Shown one piece after another: positions 20,680 through 40,123 of a stretch of DNA of 64,000 bases (position 1 is its first letter; each line of letters starts with the position of its first letter). The DNA is from Rhodothermales bacterium (GTDB taxonomy: Bacteria; Bacteroidota; Rhodothermia; Rhodothermales; Bin80), in assembly GCA_028278205.1 (NCBI GenBank), contig JANQES010000045.1, positions 16,319 to 80,318 on the forward strand. The letters run 5' to 3'. Under the pieces are notes generated by a model. That model searched no databases and was not told the DNA's origin. It was given only the letters and a program-made list of their open reading frames with translations. The position numbers and the translations under genes are program-made.

Positions 20680-20765
20680 AGGAAAGGAAGAGAGGGAGAA
20701 AGGGCGAGAGGGCGATTTGTTCTTTTCACCCTTTCCCCCTCTCTCCCACTCCCCCTCTCACTCAC
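20680..20765. repeat. purine-rich/pyrimidine-rich (GAGGG-type) palindromic element
   Basis: ggaaaggaagagagggagaaagggcgagagggcg pairs with caccctttccccctctctcccactccccctctcactc. A related copy lies at 50776-50860. Confidence 0.8.
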
Positions 20766-23700: not shown

Positions 23701-26367
23701 GTAGAGCCGGTAGCGCACCTCACGAGCGAGGTCGTTGATGGCCGGGAAGCTCCCCTGCGTCTCGGCGATGACCCGGTCGAGCAAGGCCCGGTGGTCTTCG
23801 TCGGCAAACTCGGCCAGCGCGTCGCGATGATCCAGGTGGCGCTGGAGGATGCTCAGAACGGCGCCTACCTGCTGCGCCATCCGCTGATGGCTCTTGCCGA
23901 TGCGGAAGAGGCTCTCCTCCAGCTTCGGCGACCGGTCCAGGCTGTCGACGTCGTAATGGGCCAGCATGCGTTCGAGCTTCTCGATGAAGCCGGCGGGCAG
24001 CTTTTCGCCCTTGGCGTCGAGGTCGCGCAGGTAGGTGAAGAGGTATTCTTCGGTGCTGCGCCGGCTGAGCGCCTCATCGCCGCCGGGCTGGCGCTGGTGG
24101 AGGGCGCTGATGTCGACGAAGATGTTGAGAATGGCTGCCTCGCTACGCCACATGACGGCGTCGTCCGGGGCCAGGCAATCACAGATCATCCCGCGTTGAG
24201 AGAGCGCGCGCTGCATCTCGTCCGGATCGACGTCGTAGCCCAGCATCAGGCTTTCGACCTCTGCAAAATTACGGCGGCATCGCGCGATGAGGCTCTCTTC
24301 GCGCTGCGACACAGGCACGCCAAGCGCGTCGAACGACACTTTCCCCGCGTGCGCGGCGCCGCCTGCTTCTTCGGCAGGCTCGACCAGCAGCAGTGGCGCG
24401 CCGGCAGGCACCTGCACGTTGCTGCGCACCAGCACTTCGCGCACCCGTCCGGGGAACGTCGCCAGCACCGACAGTTCCATCTTCATCGCTTCGAGCACCA
24501 CCAGCCGGTCGCCCACCGAGACCTCGTCGCCCTCTTTGACGCCCACCGAGACGACGACTGCCGGCGACGGCGCGCGGATCGTGCCGCCCTCGTCGCGCGA
24601 GATGCGATGCGGCAGGCCGTTGACTTCGACGAAATGCGTCACGCCGTGTACGCGCGAGAGCACGCGGAAGGGATGCCCGCCGCACGTCAAACGCCGCTCG
24701 ATCTTGCCGATCTGCTCGACCACCACGTCGATGCGGCGGCTGTCTACGTCGATGTGATACTCGCGCGGGCCTTGACGATAGACGTAAAGCTTGTAGGTCT
24801 GCCCTTGATAGCCCAGATCGATCTCGCGCCCGATCTCGCCTTTGACTTCGGGCCGTCCCCGCGAGGCCGAAGCGTAAAACTGTGCTTTTTCGACATCGAC
24901 CTCGGCTTCGTAGGCTTCGATGGCAGCGGCCAGCAAGGCTACTTCGGCGTGACGATGCGAGAGGTGCCCGCCTTCGGCCACGAGCCGGTCGAGCCAGCCG
25001 ACGTCGAAGATGCCTTCCTGCACTTCGGGATAGTCGAGCAATTCGAGCAGGAAGCCTTTGTTGCTCATCCCGCCCCGGATGATGACGGCGGCTTCCTCCA
25101 GGCCGCGCTTGAGCCGGGCCAGCGCTTCGGCGCGGCTCTGCCCGTGCGCGAGGAACTTGGCGATCATCGAATCGAACTCAGGCGGCACCACGTCGCCCTC
25201 TTCGACGCCCCGGTCTACGCGGATGCCCGGCCCCGTCGGCAGGCGCAGGTACTCGACCGTGCCGGGCGCCGGCGCGAAGCGGTTGGCCGGATCTTCGGCG
25301 TTGAGACGCACCTCGATGGCACAGCCGTTCTGCGGCGGCGGCTCGCCTTCGAGCAACCCGCCGCGCGCCACGTGAATCTGAAGTTTGACGAGGTCCACGC
25401 CGGTGGTCATCTCCGTGACGGGATGCTCCACCTGAAGCCGCGCATTAACCTCCATGAACGAAAACGCCTCGCTGTCGGGATCATACAAAAACTCGACCGT
25501 CCCCGCGTTTTGATAGCCGACGACCTGGCCGAGCCGCACCGCCGCCGCGCGCAACATCGCATCTTGCTCTTCGGTCAGCACGGGCGAGGGCGATTCTTCG
25601 AGGATCTTCTGATGACGGCGTTGCAACGAGCAGTCGCGCACGCCGAGGCCCCAGGCGTTGCCTGCGCCGTCGGCGATCATCTGGACTTCGATGTGACGGG
25701 CGCCGGCCATGAGGCGCTCCATGAAGACCGTGGCATCGCCGAAGCCTTTGAGCGCTTCGGCCCGCGCGCTCTCGAAGGCTTCTACCAGATCGCCGTCGTT
25801 ATAGACTTTGCGGATGCCGCGCCCGCCGCCGCCGGCGGTGGCTTTGACCATGAGCGGATAGCCGAGCCGCTTCGCATGCGCCTTCGCATCTTCGAGCGTC
25901 TCGACCGGCCCGCCGCTCCACGGCGCCACCGGCACCTCGGCCTCTTCGGCCTTGAGCTTCGAGGTGATCTTGTCGCCGAGCTGGCGCATCACATCACCCG
26001 AAGGACCGATGAAGACGATGCCGAGGCGTTCGCACAAATCGGCGAAAGCAGCGTGTTCAGCCACAAAACCCCACCCGACCCAGACGGCTTCGGCGCGGCT
26101 CTTGACCAGCGCGCGTTCCAGTTCCTTGTAGTCGAGGTACCGGTTTTTGCTGGCCCCGTCTTTTTCGTCGACGAAGATGGCCGAGCCCAGGTTGACGGCT
26201 TCGTCGGCCTCGCGCACGAACATGGCGCGGCGGTCCGGTTCGGTGTAGAGGGCGATGGTGCGGATGGAAGTGTTATACTCCCGGTTGTACTCGCGCACCG
26301 CGTGGATCAGCCGCATGGCCGGCTCCCCACGATTGACAATAGCGATCCGCTCAAAATCCCGTCGCAT
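20758..26367 (-). CDS. single-chain multidomain biotin-dependent acyl-CoA carboxylase (BC-BCCP-central-CT)
   Basis: 1869 aa. N-terminal biotin carboxylase (IAIVNRGEPAMRLIHA, ATP-grasp). Biotinyl site VLEAMKMEL encoded near 24474-24500. C-terminal carboxyltransferase region. Confidence 0.88.
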   Translation of the reverse strand: MRRDFERIAIVNRGEPAMRLIHAVREYNREYNTSIRTIALYTEPDRRAMFVREADEAVNLGSAIFVDEKDGASKNRYLDYKELERALVKSRAEAVWVGWGFVAEHAAFADLCERLGIVFIGPSGDVMRQLGDKITSKLKAEEAEVPVAPWSGGPVETLEDAKAHAKRLGYPLMVKATAGGGGRGIRKVYNDGDLVEAFESARAEALKGFGDATVFMERLMAGARHIEVQMIADGAGNAWGLGVRDCSLQRRHQKILEESPSPVLTEEQDAMLRAAAVRLGQVVGYQNAGTVEFLYDPDSEAFSFMEVNARLQVEHPVTEMTTGVDLVKLQIHVARGGLLEGEPPPQNGCAIEVRLNAEDPANRFAPAPGTVEYLRLPTGPGIRVDRGVEEGDVVPPEFDSMIAKFLAHGQSRAEALARLKRGLEEAAVIIRGGMSNKGFLLELLDYPEVQEGIFDVGWLDRLVAEGGHLSHRHAEVALLAAAIEAYEAEVDVEKAQFYASASRGRPEVKGEIGREIDLGYQGQTYKLYVYRQGPREYHIDVDSRRIDVVVEQIGKIERRLTCGGHPFRVLSRVHGVTHFVEVNGLPHRISRDEGGTIRAPSPAVVVSVGVKEGDEVSVGDRLVVLEAMKMELSVLATFPGRVREVLVRSNVQVPAGAPLLLVEPAEEAGGAAHAGKVSFDALGVPVSQREESLIARCRRNFAEVESLMLGYDVDPDEMQRALSQRGMICDCLAPDDAVMWRSEAAILNIFVDISALHQRQPGGDEALSRRSTEEYLFTYLRDLDAKGEKLPAGFIEKLERMLAHYDVDSLDRSPKLEESLFRIGKSHQRMAQQVGAVLSILQRHLDHRDALAEFADEDHRALLDRVIAETQGSFPAINDLAREVRYRLYAQPLLEQARREAYTEAVAHLAYLEEHPDAPDRAARIEALVRCPQPLKSLLSSRFETASSALGAIMLEVITRRYYRIRSLENVQAKTIEGKHFVMAEYDHEGKHVHTITTHAPYEGLAHAAVMLCPMVETLPEDHDIVVDFYLWKDGPLGDSEETLQEVLAVFNDSACPRGLRRIVVALSGPESGMGIGGTQHFTIRPSEDGYWEEKSFKGVLHRGLHPMMAKRLNLWRLQNFDIERLSSPEDVYLMRGVARDNPQDERLFGVAEIRDMTPVRDASGRVVQLPHLERMLSEVLAGFRHFQAQRPPRRRLHWNRILLYIWPPIALRSDEFNHIVHRLAPATEGLGIEAIEVHATLPKTETKEARDIVITISNIGDSGVVTSFDEPTEEPLAPLSAYEQQVLRLKRRGLVYPYELIKMFTPQREGAPTGLPPGSFAEYDLDENNVLVPVDRPAGQNTTNVVVGTIRNYTAKYPDGMERVIILGDPSRGMGNLAEAECRRINEAMRLAKEKDIPLEWFAVSAGAKIAMDSGTENMDWIALVLRRLVEFTQGGGEVNIIIIGINVGAQPYWNAEATMLMHTRGILIMTADAAMVLTGKQALDYSGGVSAEDNLGIGGYERIMGPNGQAQYFARDITEACHILLRYYDHTYVVPGERFPRRADTDDPTARDVRTYEHGRVNGISFGQIGEVFSDEKNPGRKKPFDVRRIMKACVDQDHEPLERWYGMEDAEIAVVWDAHIGGYPVCLLGLESRPLSRFGFIPADGPDVWTGGTLFPRSSKKVARAINAASGNRPVVVLANLSGFDGSPESLRSWQLEYGAEIGRAVVNFKGPIIFCVISRYHGGAFVVFSNALNENMEIVALEGTYASVIGGAPAAAVVFAREVKKRALADTRLRALDEEIKQAEGAEKVRLQTRREELFHEIHSEKLGQVADEFDGIHSVHRAQKVGSVQHIIPPETLRPYLIDAVERGMARVLDQMDASPALSE

Positions 26368-26370
26368 GGC

Positions 26371-26479
26371 GATTTTGGATTTTAGATTTTGGATTTTGGA
26401 TTTGGAATCGGGATTGCGGATTCCGGACAGCTTGATTCAATCAAACCAATCCAAAATCCGCAATCCAAAATCCAAAATT
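26371..26479. repeat. GGATTTT-armed hairpin element between megasynthase and carboxylase genes
   Basis: gattttggattttagattttggattttggatttggaatcgggattgcggattcc pairs with ccaatccaaaatccgcaatccaaaatccaaaat. It occupies the whole 110-bp spacer within a same-strand gene pair. Confidence 0.85.
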
Positions 26480-27400
26480 AAGACATGGCAGCCTGAAGCG
26501 GCTTCAACGCTTCGGCTTCGACGCCGCCGGGTAGTTCGGCGGTGCCGTAGCCTTTGAGCGTCACGAAGACGGCGCCTTTTTCGTCCACCACGCGGGCGTC
26601 GTAGCGGTCGCCTTCGGGTGTGACTACGGCAAAGAGCCGGCCTTTGGCTTTGGCCGGATCGCCGAAGCGCCGGACCTCGTCGATGCGCATCGGCAGGCCC
26701 ATCCGTCCGTGTGTGCCCATCTCCCACATGCCGGCTGTCTGGAAGCAGCTTTCGATGAGGCGCGGGGCCATCACCAGCGGCAGGTCGTCCGGGCTATGGT
26801 TGGCCGGGAGGTCCGCCGGCAACAGGCCCACGACGGTGTCGCCGTCGCGCCAGACGGTTTCCAGCACTTGATAGGCCGGGCCGTGGAAGTAGACGCGGTA
26901 AACGTCGTCTTGCTCGACGGTCGAGCCTTTGGCGGCGGCAGGCGCCTTGGTCTTCCTGGCTTTGGGCGCTTCCTCTGCTAAGCGCACCGTCGCCTTGAAG
27001 TGCGTAGTCGCTTCCGTGCCGCGCGGCAGCTCGCGCACGCCGATCAACCGGCAATCAGCCAGCAATTCGTCGCCGTCGTGGCGAAGCACCGCTTTGACGG
27101 TGACGGTCCTCGGCTCATCGCGGTAGAACTTGAACGGCGCGAGGAAATCGACGTCTTCGATGGCCGCTACGTGCCAGCCGGGGAAGAGCTTCTTAGCAGC
27201 TTCGCCGAAGGCTTCGACGCCCATCACGCCCGGCAGCACCGGGATGCCGTCGATGCGGTGGTCGAAGAGGAACGGCTGTTCGTTCGGGTCGAGCGTCGTC
27301 TCGATGGTCAGACCGTCAAAGAGCATCAGGCCGGTGACCTGCTCCGAGATCGGGCCGAGCGGCTCCGCCTCCAGGGCGTCGAGGTCGAGGCCGCCGGTGG
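26478..27400 (-). other. PKS-type dehydratase (double hot-dog) domain
   Basis: Contains LFDHRIDGIPVLPGVMGVE, with a second hot-dog half ending at the C-terminus. Confidence 0.65.
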
Positions 27401-30400
27401 CGTCCCATTCCTGCACCAGGATGCCGAGTTCCTTGCCGGCCACAAACTCACCGCTCCAGCCGCCCGAGATCAACTCGCGGCGGATGATGGGGATGCCGGC
27501 TTCCGGCGGCAACATGCCGATGCCGGCGGCTTCCATCATCTTGGGAATCGACCCGCGTGTCGCCATGCCGATGCCGCCCCAGGCGGTCCAGTCGATGGCG
27601 ATGCCGCGCGTCTCAGGACGGATCGCGCGGAAGCTCGACGAGGTCTTGCACAGCAGGTCGTTGGCGGCGCTGTAGTCCGTCTGCCCGGCATTGCCGAAGC
27701 GCCCGGCCACCGAGCTAAAGACGACCGCCGCGCCCAGCGGCATTTCGCCGATAGCCTTCAGCAGGCTGAACCAGCCGTCGCTCTTGACGTCGAAGACGAG
27801 GTCGAATTCCTTGCGCTCTTTTTGAGGCAGGAAGCGGCTGATTTCGAGGCCGCCCGCGTGCAGCAGCACGTCGATGCGTCCATGCTGTTCGCGGATCTCG
27901 TCGATCACCTTCGTGAGGCCTTCGGCGTCGAGGAGGTTGACGCTGTGGTAGTGCGCCGTGCCACCGGCTTGCTCGACCGCCTGGATGGCGGCGAGGGCGG
28001 CCTGCGCCCGTTCCAGCTTCGCCAGTTCCTTCTCGACCATCGCGGGCGTGGCCCGTTCGCCGCTGGCTTTGATGCGTTCGAAGATATCGCGCTTCAGCCC
28101 ATCTTTGTCTGTGATGAAGCGTTCGATGTCTGGGTCGGCGGGATCAGGCTTGGGCACCAGATCGAGCAGGTAGAACGTGCCGCTCGATGCCTCAGCGAGA
28201 TCCTGCGTGATGGCCGAGACGATGCTGCCGGCAGCGCCGGTGACAACGAAGATGGTGTCTTTATTGAGATCCAATCCGCCGTCATTCTCCGGAATCGGCT
28301 GCACTTCCAACCCGATGGCGTAGCGCTGGTCGTTTTTGTATCCGACCTCAACGACGCCGGGGTCACGCAGCGTCTCGTCGATAATCAGGTCGGCCAGGGC
28401 TGCGGTCTTGCGGCTCGGCGGGAAGTCTACGGCTTTGCAGAGAACGTCGTTGTGCTCGCGCTTGTACGTCTTCGTGAAGCCTACGACCGGGCCGCCCATC
28501 GGGGCAACGGCGCCGGCTTCGTCGTAGCCGTGCTGCCCGCCCAGGCGCGTAGCCGAGACGAGGAACGTCTCCGCCGTGTTGACCTGCTCGTAGAGCGCGC
28601 GCATCGTGGCGTAGAGCAGCTTGACACGCACGCGCAGCGCCTCGCGCCAACCGTCGAGATCCATCTCGAAGAGCGAGCCTTCGTCGTCGAGCGCCGGCAG
28701 CCAGTAGACGCCGGTCACCGGCGCCTCGCCGCGCCATTCGTCGATCCGCGCGATCAGCGCTTCAGCGTCGGGCGCGTCGTCGATGGCGAGGACGTTCACT
28801 TTGCGCTTCTCCAGCCGGTTGACGAGCGCTTTGCCGACGCCGCCCTGGTCCTTCATCACGACGACGTAGCTGTTTTCGTCGAGCGTCACGCCGGTGGGTT
28901 TGCACAGGTCGAGCGCTGGACGCAGCACCGGCACCGGCACGCGACGCGCAATCGTGGCCGCGTCTTCGAGCGTGCCGACGATGCGCGGTGCCATTACCGG
29001 CGCTTCGGGCGCCGCGACGCCGTCGCCTGCGTGGTCGGCGACGCCGGACGCCAGACTCGGCGCGCGGTCGTGGACGAACTGGATGACGTGCGAGAGCGTC
29101 GGGTAATCGCGCAGTTGCAGGTTGTCGTCCCGTTCGATGTCGTACGCGGCGCGGATGTTGGCGAACATCTCGGCCTGCTTGACCGTGTCGATGCCGAGAT
29201 CAGCTTCGAGGTCGAGATCCAACCCCAGCATGTCCTCCGGATAACCCGTCTGCTCAGCAACGAGTTCGAGCACTTTCGCCGTGACGGGATCTTCGCCCGC
29301 CTCAGCCGGCGTGGCTGCCGGGGCTTCCGGCGCCGCAGCGGGCGCTTCGGGCACCGCAGCCGGAGCCGCCGCAACGGGCGCCGCCGATGGCTTCAGGTCA
29401 GGCCGTTTGTCGTAGACGAACTGAATCGTGTGGGCCAGCGTCGGGAAATCGCGCAATTGCAGGTTCTCATCCCGCTCGATGCCGTATTCCTCACGCACCG
29501 CAGCGAAAAGCTCAGCCTGCTTGACCGTGTCGATGCCCAGATCGGCCTCCAGATCCAGATCCAATTCCAGCATCTCCACCGGATAGCCCGTCTGCTCGGC
29601 GATCAGGTCGAGCACCTTGATCTTGACCGGCTCGTCCACCTCCACCGGCGCGGCTGCCGGAGCGCCGTTGCCTGTCGGCGCAGCGACCGGCGTTTCCGGC
29701 GCAGCAACAGCCGCAGGTGCCTGAGCAGGCGCTGCCGCCGGAGCGGCTGTCGGCGCCAGATCAGGCCGTTTGTCGTAGACGAACTGAATCGTGTGGGCCA
29801 GCGTCGGGAAATCCCGCAGTTGCAGGTTCTCATCCCGCTCGATGCCGTATTCCTCGCGCACCGCAGCGAAAAGCTCAGCCTGCTTGACCGTGTCGATGCC
29901 CAGGTCGGCTTCCAGATCCAGATCCAACTCCAACATATCGACCGGATAGCCTGTCTGCCCGGCGATCAGTTCGAGGACTTTTTCTTTGACGGGATCTTCC
30001 GTCGCCACCGCCGGAGCCGCGACAGGCGCAGGCGCCGGAGCGGGTGCGGCGGCAGGAGCGGAAGCCGCCACCGGCGTCGCGGCGGGCGCCGGTGCGGGTG
30101 CTGCCGTCTTCAGATCAGGTCGTTTGTCGTAGACGAACTGGATCGTGTGGGCCAGCGTCGGGAAATCCCGCAGTTGCAGGTTCTCGTCCCGCTCGATGCC
30201 GTATTCCTCACGAACAGCGGCGAAAAGCTCGGCCTGCTTGACCGTGTCGATGCCCAGGTCGGCTTCCAGGTCGAGGTCCAGATCGAGCATGTCTTCGGGG
30301 TAGCCCGTCTGCTCGGCTACCAGCGCCAGCACTTTCTGCTTGATCGGATCCTCAGCCGTCGCTACTGGAGCAGCAGGTGCCGCAGCGGGAGCCATCGCGC

Positions 30401-33400
30401 CGTTGCCCGACACTGTCGGAGCCGGAGCCGGGGCTGCTTGCTTCAGATCAGGCCGTTTGTCGTAGACGAACTGAATCGTGTGGGCCAGCGTCGGGAAATC
30501 CCGCAGTTGCAGGTTCTCGTCCCGCTCGATGCCGTATTCCTCACGCACCGCAGCGAAAAGCTCAGCCTGCTTGACCGTGTCGATGCCCAGATCGGCTTCC
30601 AGGTCCAGATCCAGATCGAGCATGTCTTCGGGGTAGCCCGTCTGCTCGGCCACCAGCGCCAGCACTTTCTTTTCGATCGGATCGACGGCGGGTGCTGCCG
30701 GGACGGGAGCCGGGGTGACAGCCACCGGAGCCGGTTCAGGCGCTTTCGGCACAGGCGCCGGGGCTGCCGGCGTCGCGGCTACAGGCGCGGCAGGCTGCTT
30801 CGGCACGACGGGTGGGGGAGCCGGCGCCGGGGCCGGACGCGCCACGCGTTCCGGCACGGTGTCGAAGTCCGGCACGCCCTGGTCTTTGAACCGAAGCGTC
30901 CGTTTGACGATTTCGAGTTCGGGCGAGGCATAGCCGCTGACACGCGCCAGCCAGTCTTGCCGCGCGCCCTCGTTTTCGACGCGGTACGCGAAGCCGAGCC
31001 CGTCAGGATCGGGCCGCGCGCCGTTGGGCGAGGGCACCCAGCGCATCAGCGATAGGCTGATCTGCGAGCCGAAGCCCGCGCCCAGCCGCAACGCATACTG
31101 CACCGGATAGGCTCCGCCTTTCGACAGGTTGAGATTACCCAGATCCGGGTCGATCTCCTTGAAGTTGGCCACCGGCGGCACCAGCCCCGTCTCCAGCGCT
31201 TTGATAGCGAGAACGTCCTCGACGCCCGCACCCATGGCGTGGCCGGTGTAGCCCTTCGTGTTGGCGATGACGACCTGATCGGCAGCCGCGCCGAAGACGT
31301 GGCGCAGCGCGTCGATCTCGGCCTGGGCGCTACCGCCGCGCGCCGGGGTGTAGGTCTCGTGCGAGACGAAGACCGTCTGCGGCGCGATGTCGTAGCGGTT
31401 GATGCCCCACTGCTGCTCGGCCTTGACGATCAGATCCTCCATCACATGCCGGATGTGGCTGATGTCGAGGCGTGTGCCGTGGAAGGCGCTGTTGCGCGTC
31501 ACGGTGCTCAAGACCTCGGTAATGGGCCGGACGCCGCGCTCGCGCGCCGCATCTGCACTCTCGACCACGATAGACGCCGCGCCCATACCAACGATCATGC
31601 CGTGACGCCGACGGTCGAACGGCAGCGCCGCTTCTTCGACCACCTCGTCTGTGGCGGCGGCACCCGAAGCCAGGAAGCCGGCGCCGATCCAGTGCAGCAG
31701 ATTGTCCGACGTGACGTTGTCGGCGGCGACGATGACCACGCGGCGGCACCGCCCGGTGCGGATCCAATCCTCGGCCAGCGCCACGGCCTGCGTCGTCGAG
31801 GCGCAGGCGGCGTTGATCTGCGTGTTCGGTCCCCGCGCGCCGATGTACTCGGCAAACTGCGAGTGGCCCATCGACAGGATGCGGAACATCCACTTCCGGT
31901 CGAGATGGTACTCCTCTCTGGTGAGGCCCGCTTCGAGTTCGTGGATGCGCCGGTCGATTTCGCGGGCGAGCGTGTCGTCGCCGTTGGTGCCGGTCAGGCG
32001 TTCGCGCAGGCTTCGCAGGTCTTCGAGGCGCTGGCGCAGGGCCTGATCGGTGTAGAAATTCTTCATCTCCTCGGCGAAGGCATCATAGCCGGGGAAGGCC
32101 GAGGCGAAGATGACGCCCGTCTCGTCGCGCAGGGCGGGGGGTAACATCCAGCGCTCAGGCAGCTTCGAGTTGGTCGTCGTGACTTTGTAATGCATCGCCA
32201 GCGGCACGCCTGCGTCGCGCAGCGCATCGACGCCTGCGCCGATGCAGAGCCGGTCGGTCGATTCCAGCGCGTCGTCGCGGTTGGCGGGGTAGCCGAAGTC
32301 TCCGACGATGTCGAGTTCACCGGCGCGTCCGGCGAGTTTGATAACTTCGGCCTGGTTTTCGATGATCTCGAAATGCGGCTCGCCGTTTTTGGGTTTGACG
32401 AGGCGCGTGATGTGTTTATTGACCATGTCCCGGCGCAGCTTCGTCGGGATCACGTCGATGAACTGATCGCCGTGGAGCAGCGCTTCGACGTTGGTGTCGT
32501 CGAAGACCTTGTCGCGCCCCGGCAGGCCGAGGCTGGCGCCGGTGACGACGATAGGCTCCTGCAACCCTGCCGGCGCAGGCGTCGGGCGCCCTTCGTAAAT
32601 CTGCCGCCCCCGGTCGAGGAAGTCGGCGAAGAGCTTGCCGAGTTCGACGTATTTGTCCTGTCCCGCAGCCGCATGAACGGGCGGGCGCGGTGCCGCTGGG
32701 GCCTGCGCCACAACGGGCGCCGGTACCAGCGCGGGTTCGGGTTGCGACGTTTGTAGAGACGTTACATGTAACGTCTCTACGGATGCCGTCGGAACCACCG
32801 TTTCGCCAACACCAACCCCGTGCCCGGCGGCATACAATCCGCACAGCGCGTGGTTGAACGTCATCACGTCACCCTGTTTCGGGTGGTTGGCGAAGAGGGC
32901 TGAGACTTCCGGATCGCTGCCCAGCACGTCTTCGGCAAAGCCCCAGAGCGCCTTCTTCGGGCCGGTCTCGACGAACACGCGCACCCCGGCGTCATAGAGC
33001 GTCTTCAAGCCCTTGACGAACTGCACCGGCGAGGCGACTTGCTTACCGAGAATGTCGATTATTTCGGGGACGACGCCGGGGTGCATCGGGTAAAACTCCC
33101 CGCTGACGTTGGCAATGATCGGGCGGGTGGGCGGTTGGAGGTTGAGATCTTTGAGGTACTTCTTGAGCGGCTCGCTGGCCGGCGCGACGATGGAGGTGTG
33201 GAAGGCGTGGCTGACCGGGATGGGCCGCACGTCGTAGCCCGCCTCCATGATGACCTTCCCGGCTTCTTTAACCCCTGCCGTCGAGCCGCCGATGACCGAC
33301 TGAGCGGTGCTGTTGATGTTGGCGATGACCACGTAGCCTTCTACCGTCTCCAGCAGCCGTTCCACCTCTTCGATGGGCGCGAAGACCGCCGCCATCAGGC

Positions 33401-35642
33401 CGTTGTCTTCGAGCGACACTTCTGTCATCGCATGCGCGCGGGCGCTGACGGCCCGGAGCGCATCGTCGAAAGGCAGCGCGCCGGAGGCTACCAGGGCGCC
33501 GTATTCGCCGAGGCTGTGGCCCATCACCATGTCCGGCACGATGCCGTAGGCGGCCATCATCCGCGTGAGCGCGTCGTCGGTGGCGAGCACCGCCGGCTGG
33601 GTGATTTCGGTCTGCCGCAGGTCGGCTTCGAGCTTTTTGACCGCCGCCGGGTCGTCCGCGTCGATGAAGATGTAATCGCTCAGCGGCTTGCCGAGGATGG
33701 GCGTCATCACCTCGTCAGCCTCTTTAAACGTCTTGGCGACGATAGGCTCCATCTTGCGGAGGTTGCTCAGCATGTTGGCATACTGCGAGCCCTGGCCGGT
33801 GTAGAGGAACGCCACCTTGAGCGCGGGACCCTCGCCCCGGAAAATGCCTTGCGCCCGCAGCGCTTTCCACATGCCGGGATGGTTGGCGTCGATGGCTTTG
33901 AGTGCCCTTTCGGCTTTGCCGGCCAGTTCGGCGGCATCGGCATAGTCGATGGCGAGACGCACCGGGGCGCGGAGGTCTTTCTCAGCAGGCGGCGCCGGTT
34001 CCGGCGCGCGGCCTTGATCGGCCTCCTGTTTCACCTGCGTCAGGCGCTCCTTGATCTCGTCGTAGGATGCACCGCCTATCACCAGTGCGCCCCGCAACGG
34101 CGTCTTCGGCGTAGCCGAGGCAGGCGCTGACGGACCGGATGCTGACACCGACGCCGGAGCCGAGCCGCCAGGCTGCGCGCCGGCAAAGCTCACCGCCGTG
34201 CGCCCGTTCGTCTTGAGGCGTCCGGGGACGTATTCTTCCATCACCCCGTGGAAGTTCGTCCCGCCAAAACCGAAAGCGCTCACGCCCGCGCTTCGCACCT
34301 GATCGTCCTTCTTCTCCCAGGGCCGCAACTCGGTGTTCACACGCAGCGGCGATTCGGCAAAGTTGATGTTGGGGTTTTTGGTCTCAGCGTTAAGGCTCGG
34401 CGGCAGCGTCTTGTGATGGAGCGCCAGGGCCGCTTTGAGCATACCCGCCGCGCCCGCCGCGCCTTTGAGGTGGCCGATGTTGGATTTGACCGAACCCAGC
34501 GGGATCGACCCTACCGGCAGGCCGTAATCTTTGAAGACCTCCGCCAGCGAATCGGCTTCGATGACGTCGCCGACGCGGGTAGAGGTGCCGTGGCCTTCGA
34601 TCAGCGTGGCGGCGTCCGGAACGAGGCCCGCGTTCTCCCAGCCGCGCTGGATGGCAAACTTCTGCCCGATGGGGTTGGGCGCCGTGATGCCTTTACCGCG
34701 CCCGTCGCTCGATCCGCCCATACCGCGAATGACGGCGTAGATCTTATCGCCGTCTTTTTCGGCGTCGGCGAGGCGTTTGAGCAGGAACATGGCCGATCCT
34801 TCACCCATCACGAAGCCGTCGGCGCCTTTGCCGTAGGGGCGGGTGCCGGTGGCCGAGAGCGCGCCGATCTTGCAAAACTTGGTAAACGTCGAAGCGCTCA
34901 TGTTGGCATCGGTGCCGCCGGTGATGACGGCATCGTAATCGTGCTCCGTCAGCCCTTCGATGGCCGCCGTAATGCCGGCCATGGCCGAGGCGCACGCAGC
35001 ATCGACGATGTAGTTCGGCCCGTGGAAATTGAACAGGTTGGCGATGCGACCGGCGATGATGTTCGCCAGTTCGCCGGGCATCGTGTCTTCGGTGATCTCA
35101 GGAATCCGCTTGCCGATGCCGGCTTGCATTTCTTTGAGGATGGTCTGTTGCACCTCCTCCGGCAACGCCGCAAAACTCGGCGCGTGCTCCAGTTCCTGGG
35201 CATATTCCGGGAAGAAGATGCGCAGCGCTGTGATGTAATGCTTGTCGCCGCCCATGGCGTTGCCCACGATGACGGCGGTGCGGTCCGAGTCGAGCGCCCG
35301 GTCGGGGTAGCCGTAGTCGTTGAGCGCTTCGCGGGCGGCGATGATGGCCCACTTCTGCGTGCGGTCCATCTGGTCGGCCACCTTGGGCGGAATGGGCAGG
35401 CGCCATTTCATGGGCTCCCAGTTCCAGTCGTGGCACCAGCCGCCGATCTTGGAATAGCTCTTGTCGGGGGCTTTGGGATCGGGATCGAAGTAGAGGTCCG
35501 GGTCCCAGCGTTCGGGGCGGACGTCGGTGATGCTGTAGCGCCCACTTGTAAGGTTATTCCAGAAAGTGGGGGCGTCGGGCGCGTCGGGGAGGACCGCACC
35601 TACGCCTACAATGGCGACAGCTCGGTGTGCGGTATCGGTCAT
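26478..35642 (-). CDS. PfaA-like iterative type I polyketide / secondary-lipid synthase (KS-AT-KS-5xACP-KR-DH)
   Basis: ORF 26478-35717. The upstream ATG at 35717 lies inside a palindromic repeat. ATG at 35642 (MTDTAHRAVAIVGVG) has an AAAGGAAAAG-like RBS. Motifs seen: DAACASAM/HGTST/SNIGH (KS), GHSLGEY (AT), NAACAST/SHETYT/GHAMG (second KS), 5x LGIDTVKQAE (ACP), VVTGAAGSIV (KR) and FDHRIDGIPVLPG (DH). Confidence 0.9.
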   Translation of the reverse strand: MTDTAHRAVAIVGVGAVLPDAPDAPTFWNNLTSGRYSITDVRPERWDPDLYFDPDPKAPDKSYSKIGGWCHDWNWEPMKWRLPIPPKVADQMDRTQKWAIIAAREALNDYGYPDRALDSDRTAVIVGNAMGGDKHYITALRIFFPEYAQELEHAPSFAALPEEVQQTILKEMQAGIGKRIPEITEDTMPGELANIIAGRIANLFNFHGPNYIVDAACASAMAGITAAIEGLTEHDYDAVITGGTDANMSASTFTKFCKIGALSATGTRPYGKGADGFVMGEGSAMFLLKRLADAEKDGDKIYAVIRGMGGSSDGRGKGITAPNPIGQKFAIQRGWENAGLVPDAATLIEGHGTSTRVGDVIEADSLAEVFKDYGLPVGSIPLGSVKSNIGHLKGAAGAAGMLKAALALHHKTLPPSLNAETKNPNINFAESPLRVNTELRPWEKKDDQVRSAGVSAFGFGGTNFHGVMEEYVPGRLKTNGRTAVSFAGAQPGGSAPASVSASGPSAPASATPKTPLRGALVIGGASYDEIKERLTQVKQEADQGRAPEPAPPAEKDLRAPVRLAIDYADAAELAGKAERALKAIDANHPGMWKALRAQGIFRGEGPALKVAFLYTGQGSQYANMLSNLRKMEPIVAKTFKEADEVMTPILGKPLSDYIFIDADDPAAVKKLEADLRQTEITQPAVLATDDALTRMMAAYGIVPDMVMGHSLGEYGALVASGALPFDDALRAVSARAHAMTEVSLEDNGLMAAVFAPIEEVERLLETVEGYVVIANINSTAQSVIGGSTAGVKEAGKVIMEAGYDVRPIPVSHAFHTSIVAPASEPLKKYLKDLNLQPPTRPIIANVSGEFYPMHPGVVPEIIDILGKQVASPVQFVKGLKTLYDAGVRVFVETGPKKALWGFAEDVLGSDPEVSALFANHPKQGDVMTFNHALCGLYAAGHGVGVGETVVPTASVETLHVTSLQTSQPEPALVPAPVVAQAPAAPRPPVHAAAGQDKYVELGKLFADFLDRGRQIYEGRPTPAPAGLQEPIVVTGASLGLPGRDKVFDDTNVEALLHGDQFIDVIPTKLRRDMVNKHITRLVKPKNGEPHFEIIENQAEVIKLAGRAGELDIVGDFGYPANRDDALESTDRLCIGAGVDALRDAGVPLAMHYKVTTTNSKLPERWMLPPALRDETGVIFASAFPGYDAFAEEMKNFYTDQALRQRLEDLRSLRERLTGTNGDDTLAREIDRRIHELEAGLTREEYHLDRKWMFRILSMGHSQFAEYIGARGPNTQINAACASTTQAVALAEDWIRTGRCRRVVIVAADNVTSDNLLHWIGAGFLASGAAATDEVVEEAALPFDRRRHGMIVGMGAASIVVESADAARERGVRPITEVLSTVTRNSAFHGTRLDISHIRHVMEDLIVKAEQQWGINRYDIAPQTVFVSHETYTPARGGSAQAEIDALRHVFGAAADQVVIANTKGYTGHAMGAGVEDVLAIKALETGLVPPVANFKEIDPDLGNLNLSKGGAYPVQYALRLGAGFGSQISLSLMRWVPSPNGARPDPDGLGFAYRVENEGARQDWLARVSGYASPELEIVKRTLRFKDQGVPDFDTVPERVARPAPAPAPPPVVPKQPAAPVAATPAAPAPVPKAPEPAPVAVTPAPVPAAPAVDPIEKKVLALVAEQTGYPEDMLDLDLDLEADLGIDTVKQAELFAAVREEYGIERDENLQLRDFPTLAHTIQFVYDKRPDLKQAAPAPAPTVSGNGAMAPAAAPAAPVATAEDPIKQKVLALVAEQTGYPEDMLDLDLDLEADLGIDTVKQAELFAAVREEYGIERDENLQLRDFPTLAHTIQFVYDKRPDLKTAAPAPAPAATPVAASAPAAAPAPAPAPVAAPAVATEDPVKEKVLELIAGQTGYPVDMLELDLDLEADLGIDTVKQAELFAAVREEYGIERDENLQLRDFPTLAHTIQFVYDKRPDLAPTAAPAAAPAQAPAAVAAPETPVAAPTGNGAPAAAPVEVDEPVKIKVLDLIAEQTGYPVEMLELDLDLEADLGIDTVKQAELFAAVREEYGIERDENLQLRDFPTLAHTIQFVYDKRPDLKPSAAPVAAAPAAVPEAPAAAPEAPAATPAEAGEDPVTAKVLELVAEQTGYPEDMLGLDLDLEADLGIDTVKQAEMFANIRAAYDIERDDNLQLRDYPTLSHVIQFVHDRAPSLASGVADHAGDGVAAPEAPVMAPRIVGTLEDAATIARRVPVPVLRPALDLCKPTGVTLDENSYVVVMKDQGGVGKALVNRLEKRKVNVLAIDDAPDAEALIARIDEWRGEAPVTGVYWLPALDDEGSLFEMDLDGWREALRVRVKLLYATMRALYEQVNTAETFLVSATRLGGQHGYDEAGAVAPMGGPVVGFTKTYKREHNDVLCKAVDFPPSRKTAALADLIIDETLRDPGVVEVGYKNDQRYAIGLEVQPIPENDGGLDLNKDTIFVVTGAAGSIVSAITQDLAEASSGTFYLLDLVPKPDPADPDIERFITDKDGLKRDIFERIKASGERATPAMVEKELAKLERAQAALAAIQAVEQAGGTAHYHSVNLLDAEGLTKVIDEIREQHGRIDVLLHAGGLEISRFLPQKERKEFDLVFDVKSDGWFSLLKAIGEMPLGAAVVFSSVAGRFGNAGQTDYSAANDLLCKTSSSFRAIRPETRGIAIDWTAWGGIGMATRGSIPKMMEAAGIGMLPPEAGIPIIRRELISGGWSGEFVAGKELGILVQEWDATGGLDLDALEAEPLGPISEQVTGLMLFDGLTIETTLDPNEQPFLFDHRIDGIPVLPGVMGVEAFGEAAKKLFPGWHVAAIEDVDFLAPFKFYRDEPRTVTVKAVLRHDGDELLADCRLIGVRELPRGTEATTHFKATVRLAEEAPKARKTKAPAAAKGSTVEQDDVYRVYFHGPAYQVLETVWRDGDTVVGLLPADLPANHSPDDLPLVMAPRLIESCFQTAGMWEMGTHGRMGLPMRIDEVRRFGDPAKAKGRLFAVVTPEGDRYDARVVDEKGAVFVTLKGYGTAELPGGVEAEALKPLQAAMS
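27480..28980 (-). other. ketoreductase (SDR) domain
   Basis: Rossmann motif IFVVTGAAGSIVSAI and the region YSAANDLL (catalytic Tyr). Boundaries approximate. Confidence 0.7.
29050..30700 (-). repeat. five tandem ACP domains (coding tandem repeat, periods 333/354/363/342 bp)
   Basis: The landmark gtcgt(a/g)gacgaactg recurs at 30459, 30126, 29772, 29409 and 29067. The first four protein cores are identical over LGIDTVKQAELFAAVREEYGIERDENLQLRDFPTLAHTIQFVYDKRPDL. The fifth has diverged. Confidence 0.9.
31040..32560 (-). other. second KS-like domain (KS2) with long insertion
   Basis: IVVTGASLGLPG...NAACASTTQA...VSHETYTPARGG...KGYTGHAMGAGV. Retains Cys/His/His but with non-canonical contexts. Carries a charged helical insert (ALRQRLEDLRSLRERL...RRIHELEAGL). 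Confidence 0.65.
32753..32780. repeat. 28-bp perfect palindrome, copy 2, in frame inside the megasynthase gene
   Basis: Identical to 1408-1435. Translated on the minus strand as VETLHVTSLQT, in the linker after the AT domain. Confidence 0.95.
32940..33820 (-). other. acyltransferase (malonyl-type) domain
   Basis: Contains FLYTGQGSQYANM, GHSLGEYGAL and SHAFHTS. Boundaries approximate. Confidence 0.75.
34230..35630 (-). other. KS1 domain of megasynthase
   Basis: Cys-His-His triad motifs DAACASAM, EGHGTSTRVGD and SVKSNIGHLKGAAG. Confidence 0.8.
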
Positions 35643-35696
35643 GGTGCTTTTCCTTTTAGGTTCAGGCAGGATGCTTCCGTTCTGCTTTTTTGAGCC

Positions 35697-35779
35697 GTTG
35701 AGTTGGTCACTGGTCATTGGTCATTAGTGTCTTTCAAGAACCAGTGACTAGTGACCAATGACCAGTGACCAACTCAACG
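35697..35779. repeat. GTCACTGGTCATTGG-type palindromic element
   Basis: gttgagttggtcactggtcattggtcattagtg pairs with ccagtgactagtgaccaatgaccagtgaccaactcaac. A related copy lies at 46692-46770. Confidence 0.85.
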
Positions 35780-35821: not shown

Positions 35822-37507
35822 TTATTCGCGAAAGTCGCGATAGATCGCGTCTGCCACGGCGTTCATATCGTCGAGGAGGCCGCTTTGCGCGGCGTAGATG
35901 GCCGGCATGTTGAGTTTGGCCGAGAACGCTTCGACATCACTGCCGGTGACACCGGCGGCGCCGGTGATCCAGCGCAGCCCTTCGAGGCCAACCTTGAGGG
36001 CGGCTTCGCGGGCGAAGACGCGGGCGATCATGGCCAGTTCGTCCGGCTTGAAGCGTTTGTCGGCTTTGGGGTTGAGGTCGCCGTTGGCATAACGAATGGC
36101 GCGGCGGCCCAGGCAGGCGGCGCATTCGGCGAACGCGCATATCTCGCCCAGGCGGAAGAGGATGTGCTGGTTGCGCGTCAGGCGCTGCTGGCGGGCGCGT
36201 TCCATCAACTCGGCCAGCGCGTGATAGGCCAGCGCCGCCGCGTCGAGCCCGACGTTGGGATTGGCGGCATGCTCGGCTTCGAGTTGTCTGGCGGCATCAT
36301 GATAGTACGCGCCGCGCGTCTTCAGATGCTCCTGCCAGCGCGCGCGTCCGATGGTCATCTCCATGATCTCAGACGTGCCTTCATAGATCGTGGTGATCCG
36401 CACGTCGCGCTTGATCTTTTCGACCATAAACTCTTTGACGTAGCCGTAGCCGCCGTGGGCCTGGATGGCCGCTTCGGCGGCGGCGTTGCCGGATTCGGTG
36501 GCCATGTACTTGGCGATGGCGCCTTCGGTGTTGAGCGCCCCGCCATGGCCCTCGCCCGCGTCAATGCCTTCAGACGTGTATTCGATGAAGGCACGCGCGG
36601 CTTCGAGGCGAACGGCGTGCGGCACGATCAGCTTGTGGGTGTAGCCCTGCTTTTCCATCAGCAGGCTGCCACCCTGGACGCGTTCGGTGGAATAAGGAAT
36701 GGCGCGGTCGAGCGCGGCCCAGCCGGCGCCCAGGCCGAAGGAAGCCACCATCACGCGGGTGTAGCCGAAGACGTTCTGCGCCTGAACCAGACCCTGGCCC
36801 TCGACGCCGCCGAGGAGCCGGTCGGCATCGACGTAGACGTCTTGGAGCGCCAGCGCCGAGGTGTTGCTGGCGCGGATGCCGTGCTTGTCTTCGGGCTTGC
36901 CTTTGGTGAAGCCTTCGGCGTCGCGGTCAACGACGAACCAGCTCGGCCCACCGGGCGTGCGCGCCAGGATGGTGTAGAGATCGGCATAACCGCCGTTGGA
37001 GATCCACTGCTTGTTGCCGCTGATCTTGTAGCCGACGACTTTGCCGTCTTCTTCGACGGGCACGGCGGTGGTGCGGAGGGCGCCCAGGTCGCTGCCGGCG
37101 CCCGGCTCGGTGGCGCCGTAGGCCATCAGCAGGCCTTCATTCGCCAGGCGGGTGAGCCAGTGCTTCTGCTGCTCTTCGGTGCCGCCGAAGACGATGGGGT
37201 CGCTGCCCAGGAACGTGGCGAAGACGCCGGTAGCCACGCCCAGGTCAATGCGCGCCAGTTGTTCGCAGACGCGGTAGACGTCGAAGGTGCTCGCGCCCAT
37301 CCCGTCGTATTCTTCAGGGATGAACAGGAGTTGGACGCCCAGCGCATCGCCGCACATCTCGTGGATATTGTCAATCGGAAACTCGTCGTCGTGATCGAGT
37401 TGGAGGAGCTTCTCATCCGGGAAGTTGATCTCGGCGTACTCGCGTACGGCGTCGATGACCATGTCGAGGTCGTCCTTGTCGAGTCCGGTCACGTGGGTTA
37501 GTTCCAT
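35822..37507 (-). CDS. acyl-CoA dehydrogenase with C-terminal extension
   Basis: Contains [12 protein letters not shown] and [15 protein letters not shown] at 37507 is preceded by AAGGGTGA. An in-frame GTG lies at 37516. Confidence 0.85.
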
Positions 37508-37936
37508 CGTCTTCACCCTTGGGTTTCTTAGGGGCTTGGTAGGTCGAAAAATCGAGTGCCCTAAGGAACCCTTCTGCCAACTTTATCTGTAGCGGCAATA
37601 GGATACTTCCCGTGTAGGGGTAACACAAAAGGGGCGGTGGGGGATTACCCTACAAAAAGGGAGCGGCCTGCCTCTGCCCGGCCCAAAGGTGGCTGGATTT
37701 TAAGTTTTCGATTCTTTTGACCTTGACAGCAAGAAATCCCTCTGTTTCTTCCACCCTTCAAGGCACCCCTCCCCCCTGCCGTCAGACGCTCCACGTAAGG
37801 ATCCACCCCACGCCGGTTCGCAGGCAAGGATACGCCTGCGTATATTGCGCGCACCGTCGGAAACACTAACACTCAGCAGGCAAGAAAGCGTTATGCGGTA
37901 TGGCCCGACGCCACGCGTTGCACCGCGTCCGGCGCT

Positions 37937-37996
37937 GGTCATGGGTCACGGGTCATGAGTAAGAATCCCATGACTCATGACCCGTGACTCATGACC
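37937..37996. repeat. CATGAC/GTGAC-type palindromic element
   Basis: ggtcatgggtcacgggtcatgagt pairs with catgactcatgacccgtgactcatgacc. Confidence 0.85.
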
Positions 37997-38074
37997 AACG
38001 CCGACGGGCGCGCAGCGTGCCTCCGTCAAAAAACCGCAAAACGTACTTCCTGCTTGCAAAAAAGACCGGGGAAA

Positions 38075-40123
<2,049 letters not shown>

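What the first reader, a model, noticed from the sequence alone, without database searches (positions are those of the whole stretch)
31040..32560. Second KS-like domain keeps Cys/His/His but in non-canonical motifs and carries a charged helical insertion
KS2 reads NAACAST, then SHETYT (not HGTGT), then GYTGHAMG (not KSNIGH). Between its N-terminal lobe and the active-site Cys lies an insert of about 60 aa rich in heptad-like charged residues (ALRQRLEDLRSLRERLTGTNGDDTLAREIDRRIHELEAGLTREEY). This does not look like a CLF, which would have lost the Cys. It also does not look like a standard elongating KS.
Basis: seen in the sequence. Interest (0 to 1): 0.6.

Follow-up and report, generated by a model that had tools for sequence, protein, structure and literature searches.

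The report
Second active ketosynthase in lipid megasynthase
A giant fatty-acid/polyketide-type synthase carries a second, strongly diverged but apparently active chain-extending domain; it defines a large uncharacterised enzyme subfamily that a 2011 catalogue ("Type R" lipid synthase) labelled as an inactive chain-length factor.

Summary
Window 31038-32555 (minus strand) encodes residues 1055-1560 of a 3079-aa protein with the order KS1-AT-KS2-ACPx5-KR-DH. KS2 has the motifs NAACAST, SHETYTPARGGSA and NTKGYTGHAMG, plus a charged helical insert.

An AlphaFold2 model (pLDDT 82.6) and Foldseek show a complete FabF/KASII fold. It has two additions before the catalytic Cys: an 18-aa beta-hairpin and a roughly 45-aa antiparallel amphipathic helical hairpin.

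Cys, both His, the Lys and the gating Phe are kept in 120 of 121 family representatives. No curated HMM claims the domain (fabF model: 129 bits against a cut-off of 494). It is therefore not a CLF. It is a distinct and very constrained KS subfamily, 63-74% identical across phyla and present in at least 597 species genomes.

The hairpin varies in sequence but keeps its amphipathic pattern. It was lost at least six times within the family, and KS1 has its own insertion at the same site, so it is an accessory module.

The gene sits in a conserved operon of ACAD, synthase, fused ACC and PPTase. This is the "Type R" secondary lipid synthase of Shulse & Allen 2011, which called KS2 a "CLF". Its product is unknown. 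This scan has already found the same domain on other genomes.

Most likely role: a second working condensing domain that shares the elongation cycles with KS1.

The parts
26478..35717 (-). Megasynthase gene, 3079 aa: KS1-AT-KS2-ACPx5-KR-DH
   Evidence: Single ORF. Pfam domains. TIGR02813 PfaA scores 1019.7 bits against a cut-off of 1010.1.
34218..35645 (-). KS1 (aa 25-500), a canonical Pfa/PKS-type ketosynthase with DAACAS, HGTSTRVGD and VKSNIGH
   Evidence: Only 21% identical to KS2.
32919..33809 (-). Acyltransferase domain (aa 637-933)
   Evidence: PF00698, 132.8 bits.
32753..32780 (-). In-frame copy of a 28-bp perfect palindrome in the Ala/Pro-rich linker between AT and KS2
   Evidence: Sequence read. 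The palindrome has 37 copies with at most 2 mismatches in the genome.
31038..32555 (-). KS2 core (aa 1055-1560), a divergent KASII-fold ketosynthase domain. This is the finding.
   Evidence: AF2 pLDDT 82.6, pTM 0.86. Foldseek to act KS and FabF: E 1e-23, TM 0.76-0.82 normalised by target length. HMM matches to FabF over the C-terminal two thirds.
32145..32201 (-). KS2-specific beta-hairpin insertion (aa 1173-1191, LAMHYKVTTTNSKLPERWM)
   Evidence: Model strands 124-130 and 136-142. Highly conserved (entropy 0.70 bits). Aligns to a gap in KS1 in the profile-profile alignment.
31917..32087 (-). Helical region containing the charged amphipathic hairpin (aa 1211-1267)
   Evidence: Model helices 162-194 and 199-218. 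Hydrophobic positions are 91-100% conserved although the sequence varies. Absent from 30 of 121 representatives.
31803..31805 (-). Codon of the active-site Cys1305 (NAACAST)
   Evidence: Kept in 120 of 121 representatives.
31326..31364 (-). SHETYTPARGGSA motif with His1453, replacing the canonical HGTGTxxGD
   Evidence: Invariant in the 25-sequence alignment and near-universal in the wider family. AF2 is uncertain here (pLDDT below 50 at model residues 406-412).
31230..31262 (-). NTKGYTGHAMG motif with Lys1488 and His1493
31062..31082 (-). GAGFGSQ loop with Phe1549, the equivalent of the FabF GFGG gatekeeper
   Evidence: Invariant A498-Q503. Aligned to FabF GFGG.
30876..31037 (-). Conserved C-terminal extension of KS2 (aa 1561-1614)
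   Evidence: Model helix 534-545 and two strands. Invariant L525, G526, R530, E553 and L559.
29058..30680 (-). Five tandem ACP domains, each with DLGIDTV (Thr at the phosphopantetheine site)
26529..28052 (-). KR and PKS-type DH domains
   Evidence: PF08659, PF21089 and PF14765.
35822..37516 (-). Acyl-CoA-dehydrogenase-family flavoprotein (564 aa), directly upstream on the same strand
   Evidence: Pfam. Directly upstream in 57 of 57 homologous loci of at least 20 kb.
20758..26367 (-). Fused BC-BCCP-CT carboxylase (1869 aa)
   Evidence: The homologous neighbours in L001, L003 and L004 carry PF08326 ACC_central. Present in 45 of 57 loci.
19934..20671 (-). Sfp-type phosphopantetheinyl transferase
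   Evidence: PF01648 and PF17837.
37991..40123 (+). Membrane Fe-S/CCG (EtfD-like) oxidoreductase, transcribed divergently
   Evidence: Sequence. Homologue upstream in 35 of 57 loci. L004 has EtfD-EtfB-EtfA-ACAD in one row.

Best explanation
KS2 is a catalytically competent second condensing domain. It is a strongly diverged member of the Cys-His-His (KAS I/II-type) ketosynthases, built into an iterative Pfa-like 'Type R' lipid megasynthase with the order KS1-AT-KS2-ACPn-KR-DH.

It keeps every residue needed for the ping-pong Claisen cycle. Cys1305 would take the acyl chain. His1453, His1493 and Lys1488 would decarboxylate malonyl-ACP. Phe1549 would gate the site. I infer that KS2 shares the elongation cycles with KS1, each handling a different range of chain length or beta-carbon state. 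This is how the two KS domains of PUFA synthases divide labour (general knowledge of that system, not tested here).

The family-specific invariant loops (HETYTPARGGS, PFDRRRHG, GMG, NSAFHGTRL) reshape the malonyl/pantetheine side of the pocket.

The charged helical hairpin of about 45 aa extends the two 'cap' helices. In FabF and KasA these helices line the acyl pocket and the dimer interface (general knowledge). The hairpin is an accessory structural module for an interface or for docking, and is not part of the catalytic machinery.

Shown here: the fold, the retention and conservation of the residues, the anatomy and dispensability of the insert, and the operon context. Inferred: condensing activity, division of labour with KS1, and the role of the hairpin.
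For: - **Fold:** AF2 gives pLDDT 82.6 and pTM 0.86. Foldseek top hits are the actinorhodin KS subunit (1tqy_A, the KS and not the CLF chain) and many FabF structures, with E about 1e-23 and TM 0.76-0.82.
- **Catalytic residues:** Cys, His, His, Lys and the GFG Phe align with those of FabF. They are invariant in 25 diverse homologues and kept in 120 of 121 family representatives.
- **Constraint:** KS2 is 63-74% identical across Acidobacteriota, Acidimicrobiia, Myxococcota, KSB1 and Calditrichia. This equals the constraint on KS1 (65-75%). The core entropy is 0.5-0.8 bits.
- **Hairpin:** it has two helices. Its hydrophobic a/d-like positions are 91-100% conserved while the sequence is free to vary. 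It was lost at least 6-7 times on the family tree without loss of the catalytic motifs. The hairpin-less forms have the same length as FabF in this segment.
- **Context:** the operon has its own malonyl-CoA supply (fused ACC), a PPTase and a flavoprotein. This fits a self-contained iterative elongating synthase.
Against: - No biochemical data exist for any family member, and no paper on this domain was found.
- The residue after the first His is Glu instead of Gly. The Asp of the canonical HGTGTxxGD and the Glu of GEG are replaced. AF2 is least confident exactly at these invariant loops (model residues 304-325 and 406-412). The active-site chemistry could therefore differ from a normal KS.
- Division of labour with KS1 rests only on analogy with PUFA synthases.
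- Whether KS2 forms homodimers or pairs with KS1 could not be tested.
Confidence: 0.6

Rival explanations
1. KS2 is functionally a chain-length-factor-like partner, as the 2011 catalogue labelled it. It would form an intramolecular pseudo-dimer with KS1 and mainly shape the acyl tunnel, or prime the synthase by decarboxylating malonyl-ACP, without doing most condensations itself.
For: - Shulse & Allen 2011 annotate the position as CLF.
- Both KS1 and KS2 carry insertions at the same site, in the segment that in FabF (general knowledge) lies next to the dimer interface. The two insertions could therefore meet in a heterodimer.
- KS2 is tethered to AT by a long Ala/Pro-rich flexible linker, which would allow it to fold back onto KS1.
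- The His/His/Lys set is the decarboxylation machinery.
Against: - The defining CLF feature, loss of the Cys nucleophile, is not met in 120 of 121 representatives.
- The best structural match is a KS chain, not a CLF chain.
- Known KS-CLF pairs are adjacent in sequence or are separate proteins. Here an AT and about 600 residues lie between them.
- There is no evidence of heterodimerisation.
Confidence: 0.2
2. KS2 has been recruited for a non-condensing or non-canonical reaction on the ACP-bound chain. Candidates are chain release or transfer (the cluster has no thioesterase), a head-to-head or other unusual Claisen reaction, or acyl transfer to an acceptor.
For: - No TE domain or TE gene is conserved in the operon.
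- The invariant non-canonical active-site loops include a new carboxylate (Glu1454), an Arg (PARGG) and RRRH.
- The whole family co-occurs with another oddity, Thr at the carrier attachment site in 715 of 725 ACP motifs.
- The KS1-KS2 branch on the tree is very long, about 8 substitutions per site.
Against: Retention of Lys1488, the second His and the gating Phe is best explained by malonyl-ACP decarboxylative condensation. These residues are not needed for simple hydrolysis or transfer (established KS mechanism; inference). Nothing here points to a specific alternative reaction.
Confidence: 0.15
3. KS2 is a decaying, inactive duplicate kept only as a structural spacer.
For: One representative (P0160) has lost the Cys and the HETYT motif.
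Against: The active-site motifs are the most conserved parts of the domain across phyla. KS2 is as constrained as KS1.
Confidence: 0.03

Closest known systems
'Type R' secondary lipid synthase gene cluster (Shulse & Allen 2011, PLoS One 6:e20146, PMC3098273; Koribacter, Solibacter, Roseiflexus, Elusimicrobium)
   Same: A single pfaA homologue described as KS-MAT-'CLF'-ACP(3-6)-KR, with a PPTase gene downstream. In Koribacter an ACC gene lies between the two, exactly as in this window. Homologues from Korobacteraceae and Bryobacteraceae MAGs are 64-66% identical over KS2.
   Different: The paper calls the middle domain a CLF, gives no residue-level description and reports no product. Here the domain keeps Cys/His/His/Lys/Phe, so the CLF label is wrong on the defining criterion. 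The ACAD partner (57 of 57 loci), the DH domain, the Thr-ACPs and the hairpin are not described there.
FabF / KAS II and the KS subunit of type II PKS (e.g. 4ddo, 2gqd, 1kas, 1tqy_A)
   Same: Same thiolase-type fold over the whole domain (TM 0.76-0.82). Same catalytic residues and GFG gate. 17-23% identity.
   Different: - HGTGT becomes HETYT, with a 3-residue PARGG insertion where the canonical Asp sits.
- GEG becomes GMG and RDG becomes RRRHG.
- An extra 18-aa beta-hairpin and a helical hairpin of about 45 aa lie before the Cys.
- There is a 55-aa C-terminal extension.
- KS2 is embedded in a megasynthase.
- It scores far below the fabF HMM cut-off.
KS-CLF didomain of PUFA synthase PfaC (Moritella marina, PDB 6RIW) and the KS_A/KS_C pair of PUFA synthases
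   Same: A Pfa-type iterative synthase that uses two KS-like domains. KS1 of this protein aligns end to end with the KS half of 6riw_A at E 4e-54 (identity of 6RIW from PMC9138089).
   Different: In PfaC the partner directly follows the KS and has no Cys. Here the second domain follows the AT, keeps the Cys, and did not appear with 6RIW among the 60 best sequence matches or the 50 best fold matches. No pfaD homologue was found in this genome, which is 90% complete.

Membership tests
Cys-His-His condensing enzymes (KAS I/II-type ketosynthase, thiolase superfamily) | Two-lobed thiolase (alpha-beta-alpha-beta-alpha) fold | tested here: met
   AF2 model with pTM 0.86. Foldseek gives 1048 PDB hits at E<=0.001, with FabF and act KS at the top.
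Cys-His-His condensing enzymes (KAS I/II-type ketosynthase, thiolase superfamily) | Nucleophilic Cys at the N-terminus of the central helix, two His, a Lys five residues before the second His, and a gating Phe in the GFG loop | tested here: met
   C1305, H1453, H1493, K1488 and F1549 align with the FabF residues. They are invariant in A1 and kept in 120 of 121 representatives.
Cys-His-His condensing enzymes (KAS I/II-type ketosynthase, thiolase superfamily) | Pfam PF00109 and PF02801 above the gathering score | tested here: met
   51.2 and 28.3 bits against a cut-off of 20.8, but only partial coverage of each model.
Cys-His-His condensing enzymes (KAS I/II-type ketosynthase, thiolase superfamily) | Decarboxylative Claisen condensation activity | not testable with these tools
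   Needs an enzyme assay.
FabF (TIGR03150) or any other named KS subfamily in NCBIfam | Score above the curated cut-off, and the canonical HGTGT and KSxxGH motifs | tested here: not met
   129.3 bits against a cut-off of 493.75. All 17 NCBIfam hits are far below their cut-offs. The motifs read HETYT and KGYTGH.
Chain length factor (KS-beta / CLF) | Active-site Cys replaced (Gln or another residue), leaving a non-condensing partner | tested here: not met
   Cys is present here and in 120 of 121 representatives.
Chain length factor (KS-beta / CLF) | Obligate heterodimer with a KS subunit | not testable with these tools
   Only single-chain predictions of up to 1200 aa were possible, and KS1 to KS2 spans about 1540 aa.
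Type R secondary lipid synthase (Shulse & Allen 2011) | pfaA homologue with a KS, a MAT, a second KS-like domain, 3-6 ACPs and a KR | tested here: met
   KS1-AT-KS2-ACPx5-KR(-DH). Description in the paper.
Type R secondary lipid synthase (Shulse & Allen 2011) | PPTase gene downstream, and an ACC gene in between in Koribacter | tested here: met
   ACC at 20758-26367 and PPTase at 19934-20671, both on the same strand. Same order in L003, L004 and many other loci.
Type R secondary lipid synthase (Shulse & Allen 2011) | KS1 falls in the Type R clade of their KS phylogeny | not tested
   The reference sequences of the named strains were not retrieved. Only MAGs of the same families (Korobacteraceae, Bryobacteraceae) were matched.
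Canonical PUFA synthase PfaA (TIGR02813) | HMM above the cut-off, together with pfaB/C/D partners | tested here: inconclusive
   1019.7 bits against a cut-off of 1010.1, a marginal pass. No PfaD-family hit in the 90%-complete genome, and no pfaB or pfaC in the window. Canonical PfaA has no KS2.

The most novel reading that the evidence does not exclude
KS2 may not be an ordinary elongating ketosynthase. The invariant Glu/Tyr/Arg-containing active-site loops, which co-occur family-wide with threonine-type carrier domains and a dedicated flavoprotein, could mark a KS-fold enzyme with new chemistry. Candidates are chain release, head-to-head coupling, or condensation on an unusual intermediate. 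In that case Type R synthases, present in hundreds of soil and sediment bacteria, would make a lipid class not yet described.
Probability: 0.12. Interest if true: 0.75.

Novelty: new variant of a known kind. Interest (0 to 1): 0.4.

Why it matters
This synthase type is widespread. At least 597 species genomes carry it, mainly Acidobacteriota, Acidimicrobiia and Myxococcota, with 686 clusters at 50% identity. Its product has been unknown since it was catalogued in 2011.

Showing that the middle domain is a conserved and apparently active ketosynthase, not a chain-length factor, changes how the assembly line should be read. It has two condensing sites on one polypeptide.

The work also gives concrete handles for experiments: point mutants C1305, E1454 and Y1456, and a cleanly deletable hairpin with natural hairpin-less relatives. 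For enzymology, KS2 offers a natural, deeply diverged variant of the HGTGT/GEG active-site loops of KAS enzymes. For this window alone it is one more member of a catalogued but uncharacterised family, and this scan has already reported the same domain on other genomes.

Tried and rejected
1. **Hairpin as a docking site for the trans-acting ACAD, needed only when no enoyl reductase is fused.** Not supported. An NMO/FabK-type ER is fused N-terminally in 10 of 68 hairpin-bearing representatives and 4 of 22 hairpin-less ones.
2. **AF2 model of KS1, to see whether its insertion is also a helical hairpin.** The model is poor (pLDDT 52.3). It predicts helices in residues 134-180 but is not reliable, so the result is inconclusive.
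3. **KS1-KS2 heterodimer against homodimers.** This could not be modelled. The tool takes a single chain of at most 1200 aa, and KS1 to KS2 spans about 1540 aa.
4. **A named KS subfamily that would explain the motifs.** None was found in Pfam or NCBIfam. The PDB holds only generic FabF and KS matches.
5. **Literature on characterisation of Type R or of a KS-AT-KS layout.** Only the 2011 catalogue turned up.
7. **Vertical inheritance.** KS2 was not found in any of the 30 relatives searched from the same family or order. The cluster is patchy in this lineage, so horizontal acquisition is likely.
8. **Primary fatty-acid synthase.** Rejected, because the genome has a canonical fabF (622 bits).
9. 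**A linker alignment to test whether the in-frame palindrome is absent from homologues.** The script failed to cut the sequences properly, and I did not pursue it.
Full report
**1. What is there**

The window holds one uninterrupted 3079-aa ORF on the minus strand, at 26478-35717. Pfam finds these domains:
- KS, residues 32-444
- AT, residues 637-933
- a second, weaker KS signal around residue 1300
- five PP-binding domains
- KR, residues 2556-2714
- a PKS-type dehydratase, residues 2801-3063

The whole protein barely passes the PfaA model TIGR02813, at 1019.7 bits against a cut-off of 1010.1. The finding's coordinates (31040-32560) correspond to residues 1055-1560, which I call KS2.

**2. Fold and catalytic residues**

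By sequence, only the C-terminal two thirds of KS2 align with solved structures. The best match is FabF (4ddo at 8e-28, 2gqd at 1e-27 with a family profile). The profile also recovers a weak match of the N-lobe, KS2 59-123 to FabF 54-116.

An AlphaFold2 model built on 25 diverse homologues has mean pLDDT 82.6 and pTM 0.86. Foldseek against the PDB returns the actinorhodin KS subunit (1tqy_A) and dozens of FabF/KAS II structures. These hits have E about 1e-23 and TM 0.76-0.82 normalised by target length, and they cover the whole KS fold.

The following residues align with the FabF catalytic Cys, His, Lys, His and gating Phe:
- Cys1305, in NAACAST
- His1453, in SHETYT
- Lys1488 and His1493, in NTKGYTGH
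- Phe1549, in GAGFGSQ

**3. The family is real and constrained**

A word-indexed search with the KS2 region found more than 3600 proteins. The best 120 are all 63-74% identical over KS2 and share the same architecture. They come from Acidobacteriota, Gemmatimonadota, Acidimicrobiia, KSB1, Calditrichota, Myxococcota and Woeseiaceae.

An exhaustive HMMER search of 1.84 billion cluster representatives gave 686 clusters at E<1e-30.

In the close set, these motifs are invariant or nearly so:
- NAACAS
- SHETYTPARGGSA
- NTKG[FY]TGH
- GAGFGSQ
- PFDRRRHG...GMG
- NSAFHGTRL

Among 121 full-length representatives at 50% identity, the Cys is kept in 120, and the TYTPARGGS and GxTGH motifs are almost universal. 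KS2 is as conserved between loci as KS1, at 63-74% against 62-75% identity.

No curated model claims the domain. Against fabF (TIGR03150) it scores 129 bits where the cut-off is 494. Only the generic Pfam KS halves pass, and only partially.

The motifs therefore do not fall within a named, characterised KS subfamily. By the defining criterion (loss of the Cys) the domain is not a CLF.

**4. Anatomy of the insert**

Between the N-lobe helix and the Cys, KS2 has 111 residues where FabF has about 50. The model resolves the excess into two elements.

The first is a beta-hairpin, model residues 124-142, protein 1173-1191, window 32145-32201. It is highly conserved (entropy 0.70 bits) and is absent from KS1.

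The second is an antiparallel helical hairpin, helices 162-194 and 199-218, protein 1211-1267, window 31917-32087. Its first turns correspond to the canonical helix after the GxGG strand. The rest is an extension of about 45 aa.

The hairpin is much more variable in sequence than the core (1.7-2.3 bits against 0.5-0.8 bits). However, nine positions are hydrophobic in 91-100% of 120 homologues: 182, 185, 188 and 192 in the first helix, and 201, 205, 209, 212 and 216 in the second. There are essentially no gaps.

Two results temper its significance:
- **It is dispensable.** Thirty of 121 representatives lack exactly this segment (27-36 residues between the FPG and MGH anchors, against 61-84) while keeping all catalytic motifs. 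I built a tree without the hairpin columns and rooted it on KS1. The hairpin-bearing forms are basal, and the hairpin-less state needs at least 6-7 changes, which indicates repeated loss. The root lies on a very long branch, so this polarity is tentative.
- **KS1 has its own insertion at the same site.** Modular-PKS KS structures skip KS1 residues 134-196, about 53 extra residues. BLAST and hhalign align that KS1 segment with the KS2 hairpin without gaps.

In FabF and KasA the flanking helices line the acyl pocket and the dimer interface (general knowledge of those structures, not tested here). From this I infer an interface or docking role for the hairpin.

**5. Context**

The gene lies in an operon conserved across phyla:
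- An ACAD-family flavoprotein is immediately upstream in 57 of 57 loci of at least 20 kb.
- A fused BC-BCCP-CT carboxylase is downstream in 45 of 57 loci. The homologous carboxylases in L001, L003 and L004 carry the ACC_central domain.
- A PPTase follows in 34 of 57 loci.
- An EtfD-like Fe-S/CCG membrane protein is upstream in 35 of 57 loci.

The counts for the carboxylase, PPTase and EtfD-like protein are lower bounds, limited by the length of the flanks. One locus has WS/DGAT-EtfD-EtfB-EtfA-ACAD-synthase-ACC-PPTase in a row.

More distant family members fuse a FabK/NMO-type enoyl reductase to the N-terminus and the PPTase to the C-terminus.

This genome has a normal fabF and no PfaD, so the system is a secondary synthase. 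None of the 30 relatives searched from the same family or order carries KS2, so its distribution in this lineage is patchy.

**6. Comparison with the known**

Shulse & Allen (2011, PMC3098273) catalogued this arrangement as the 'Type R' secondary lipid synthase. They describe a pfaA homologue with the order KS-MAT-CLF-ACP(3-6)-KR plus a PPTase. They note that in Koribacter an ACC gene separates the two, and the product is unknown.

Five further full-text searches found no later characterisation and no description of the KS2 motifs.

Earlier notes of this scan reached the same placement for the same domain on other genomes. The cluster type is therefore known, and this window adds one more member. 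What is not in the literature I could search:
- the domain-level reading that KS2 is an active-looking, separate KS subfamily and not a CLF
- the invariant non-canonical loops
- the separable hairpin

**7. Mechanism**

The retained Cys, His, His, Lys and Phe set is the full machinery of decarboxylative Claisen condensation. Its invariance argues for a working condensing site (confidence 0.6). By analogy with the KS_A/KS_C pair of PUFA synthases, KS2 probably shares the elongation cycles with KS1.

The alternatives are:
- a CLF-like or priming partner of KS1 (confidence 0.2)
- a recruited non-canonical reaction such as chain release (confidence 0.15)
- an inactive relic (confidence 0.03)

The Glu and Tyr in HETYT, the PARGG insertion that replaces the canonical Asp, and RRRHG/GMG are invariant. 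They lie exactly where the AF2 model is least confident (model residues 304-325 and 406-412). Altered chemistry therefore cannot be excluded.

**8. Limits**

- No coordinates of the model were available for measuring where the hairpin lies.
- Multimer prediction was not possible.
- The KS1 model was poor.

Noticed in passing
window 29058-30680 (-), ACP1-5; also P0122-P0271: All five ACPs read DLGIDTV, with Thr where carrier proteins normally have the phosphopantetheinylated Ser. Across the KS2-containing family, 715 of 725 such motifs have Thr, in both the hairpin-bearing and the hairpin-less subfamilies. Earlier scan notes reported this on other genomes.
   Followed up: partly
window 32753-32780 (in frame, AT-KS2 linker) and 1408-1435: The 28-bp perfect palindrome GTAGAGACGTTACATGTAACGTCTCTAC is a dispersed genomic repeat. 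The assembly holds 37 copies with at most 2 mismatches, 21 of them exact. One copy sits in frame inside the megasynthase linker and is translated as VETLHVTSLQ.
   Followed up: partly
window 35822-37516 (-) and 37991-40123 (+); L004:2300-7931: The ACAD-family flavoprotein is directly upstream of the synthase in 57 of 57 loci and is 62-73% identical. It is often preceded by EtfD-like, EtfB and EtfA genes. The synthase has no ER domain and the genome has no PfaD, so the ACAD may supply enoyl reduction or a desaturation step.
   Followed up: partly
P0182, P0205, P0199 (distant family members): Some relatives are all-in-one proteins with the order [NMO/FabK-type ER]-KS-AT-(ACP)-KS2-ACP-KR-DH-PPTase, up to about 4000 aa.
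   Followed up: partly
G000:C108:14461-21486 (L085:4462-11487): The same genome has a second megasynthase of different layout, AT-KS-...-KR-DH, 2341 aa.
   Followed up: no
G000 compared with 30 relatives: The Type R cluster was not found in any of 18 genomes of the same family or 12 of the same order. G000 (6.9 Mb) is larger than all of them (2.7-6.2 Mb). This suggests horizontal acquisition.
   Followed up: no
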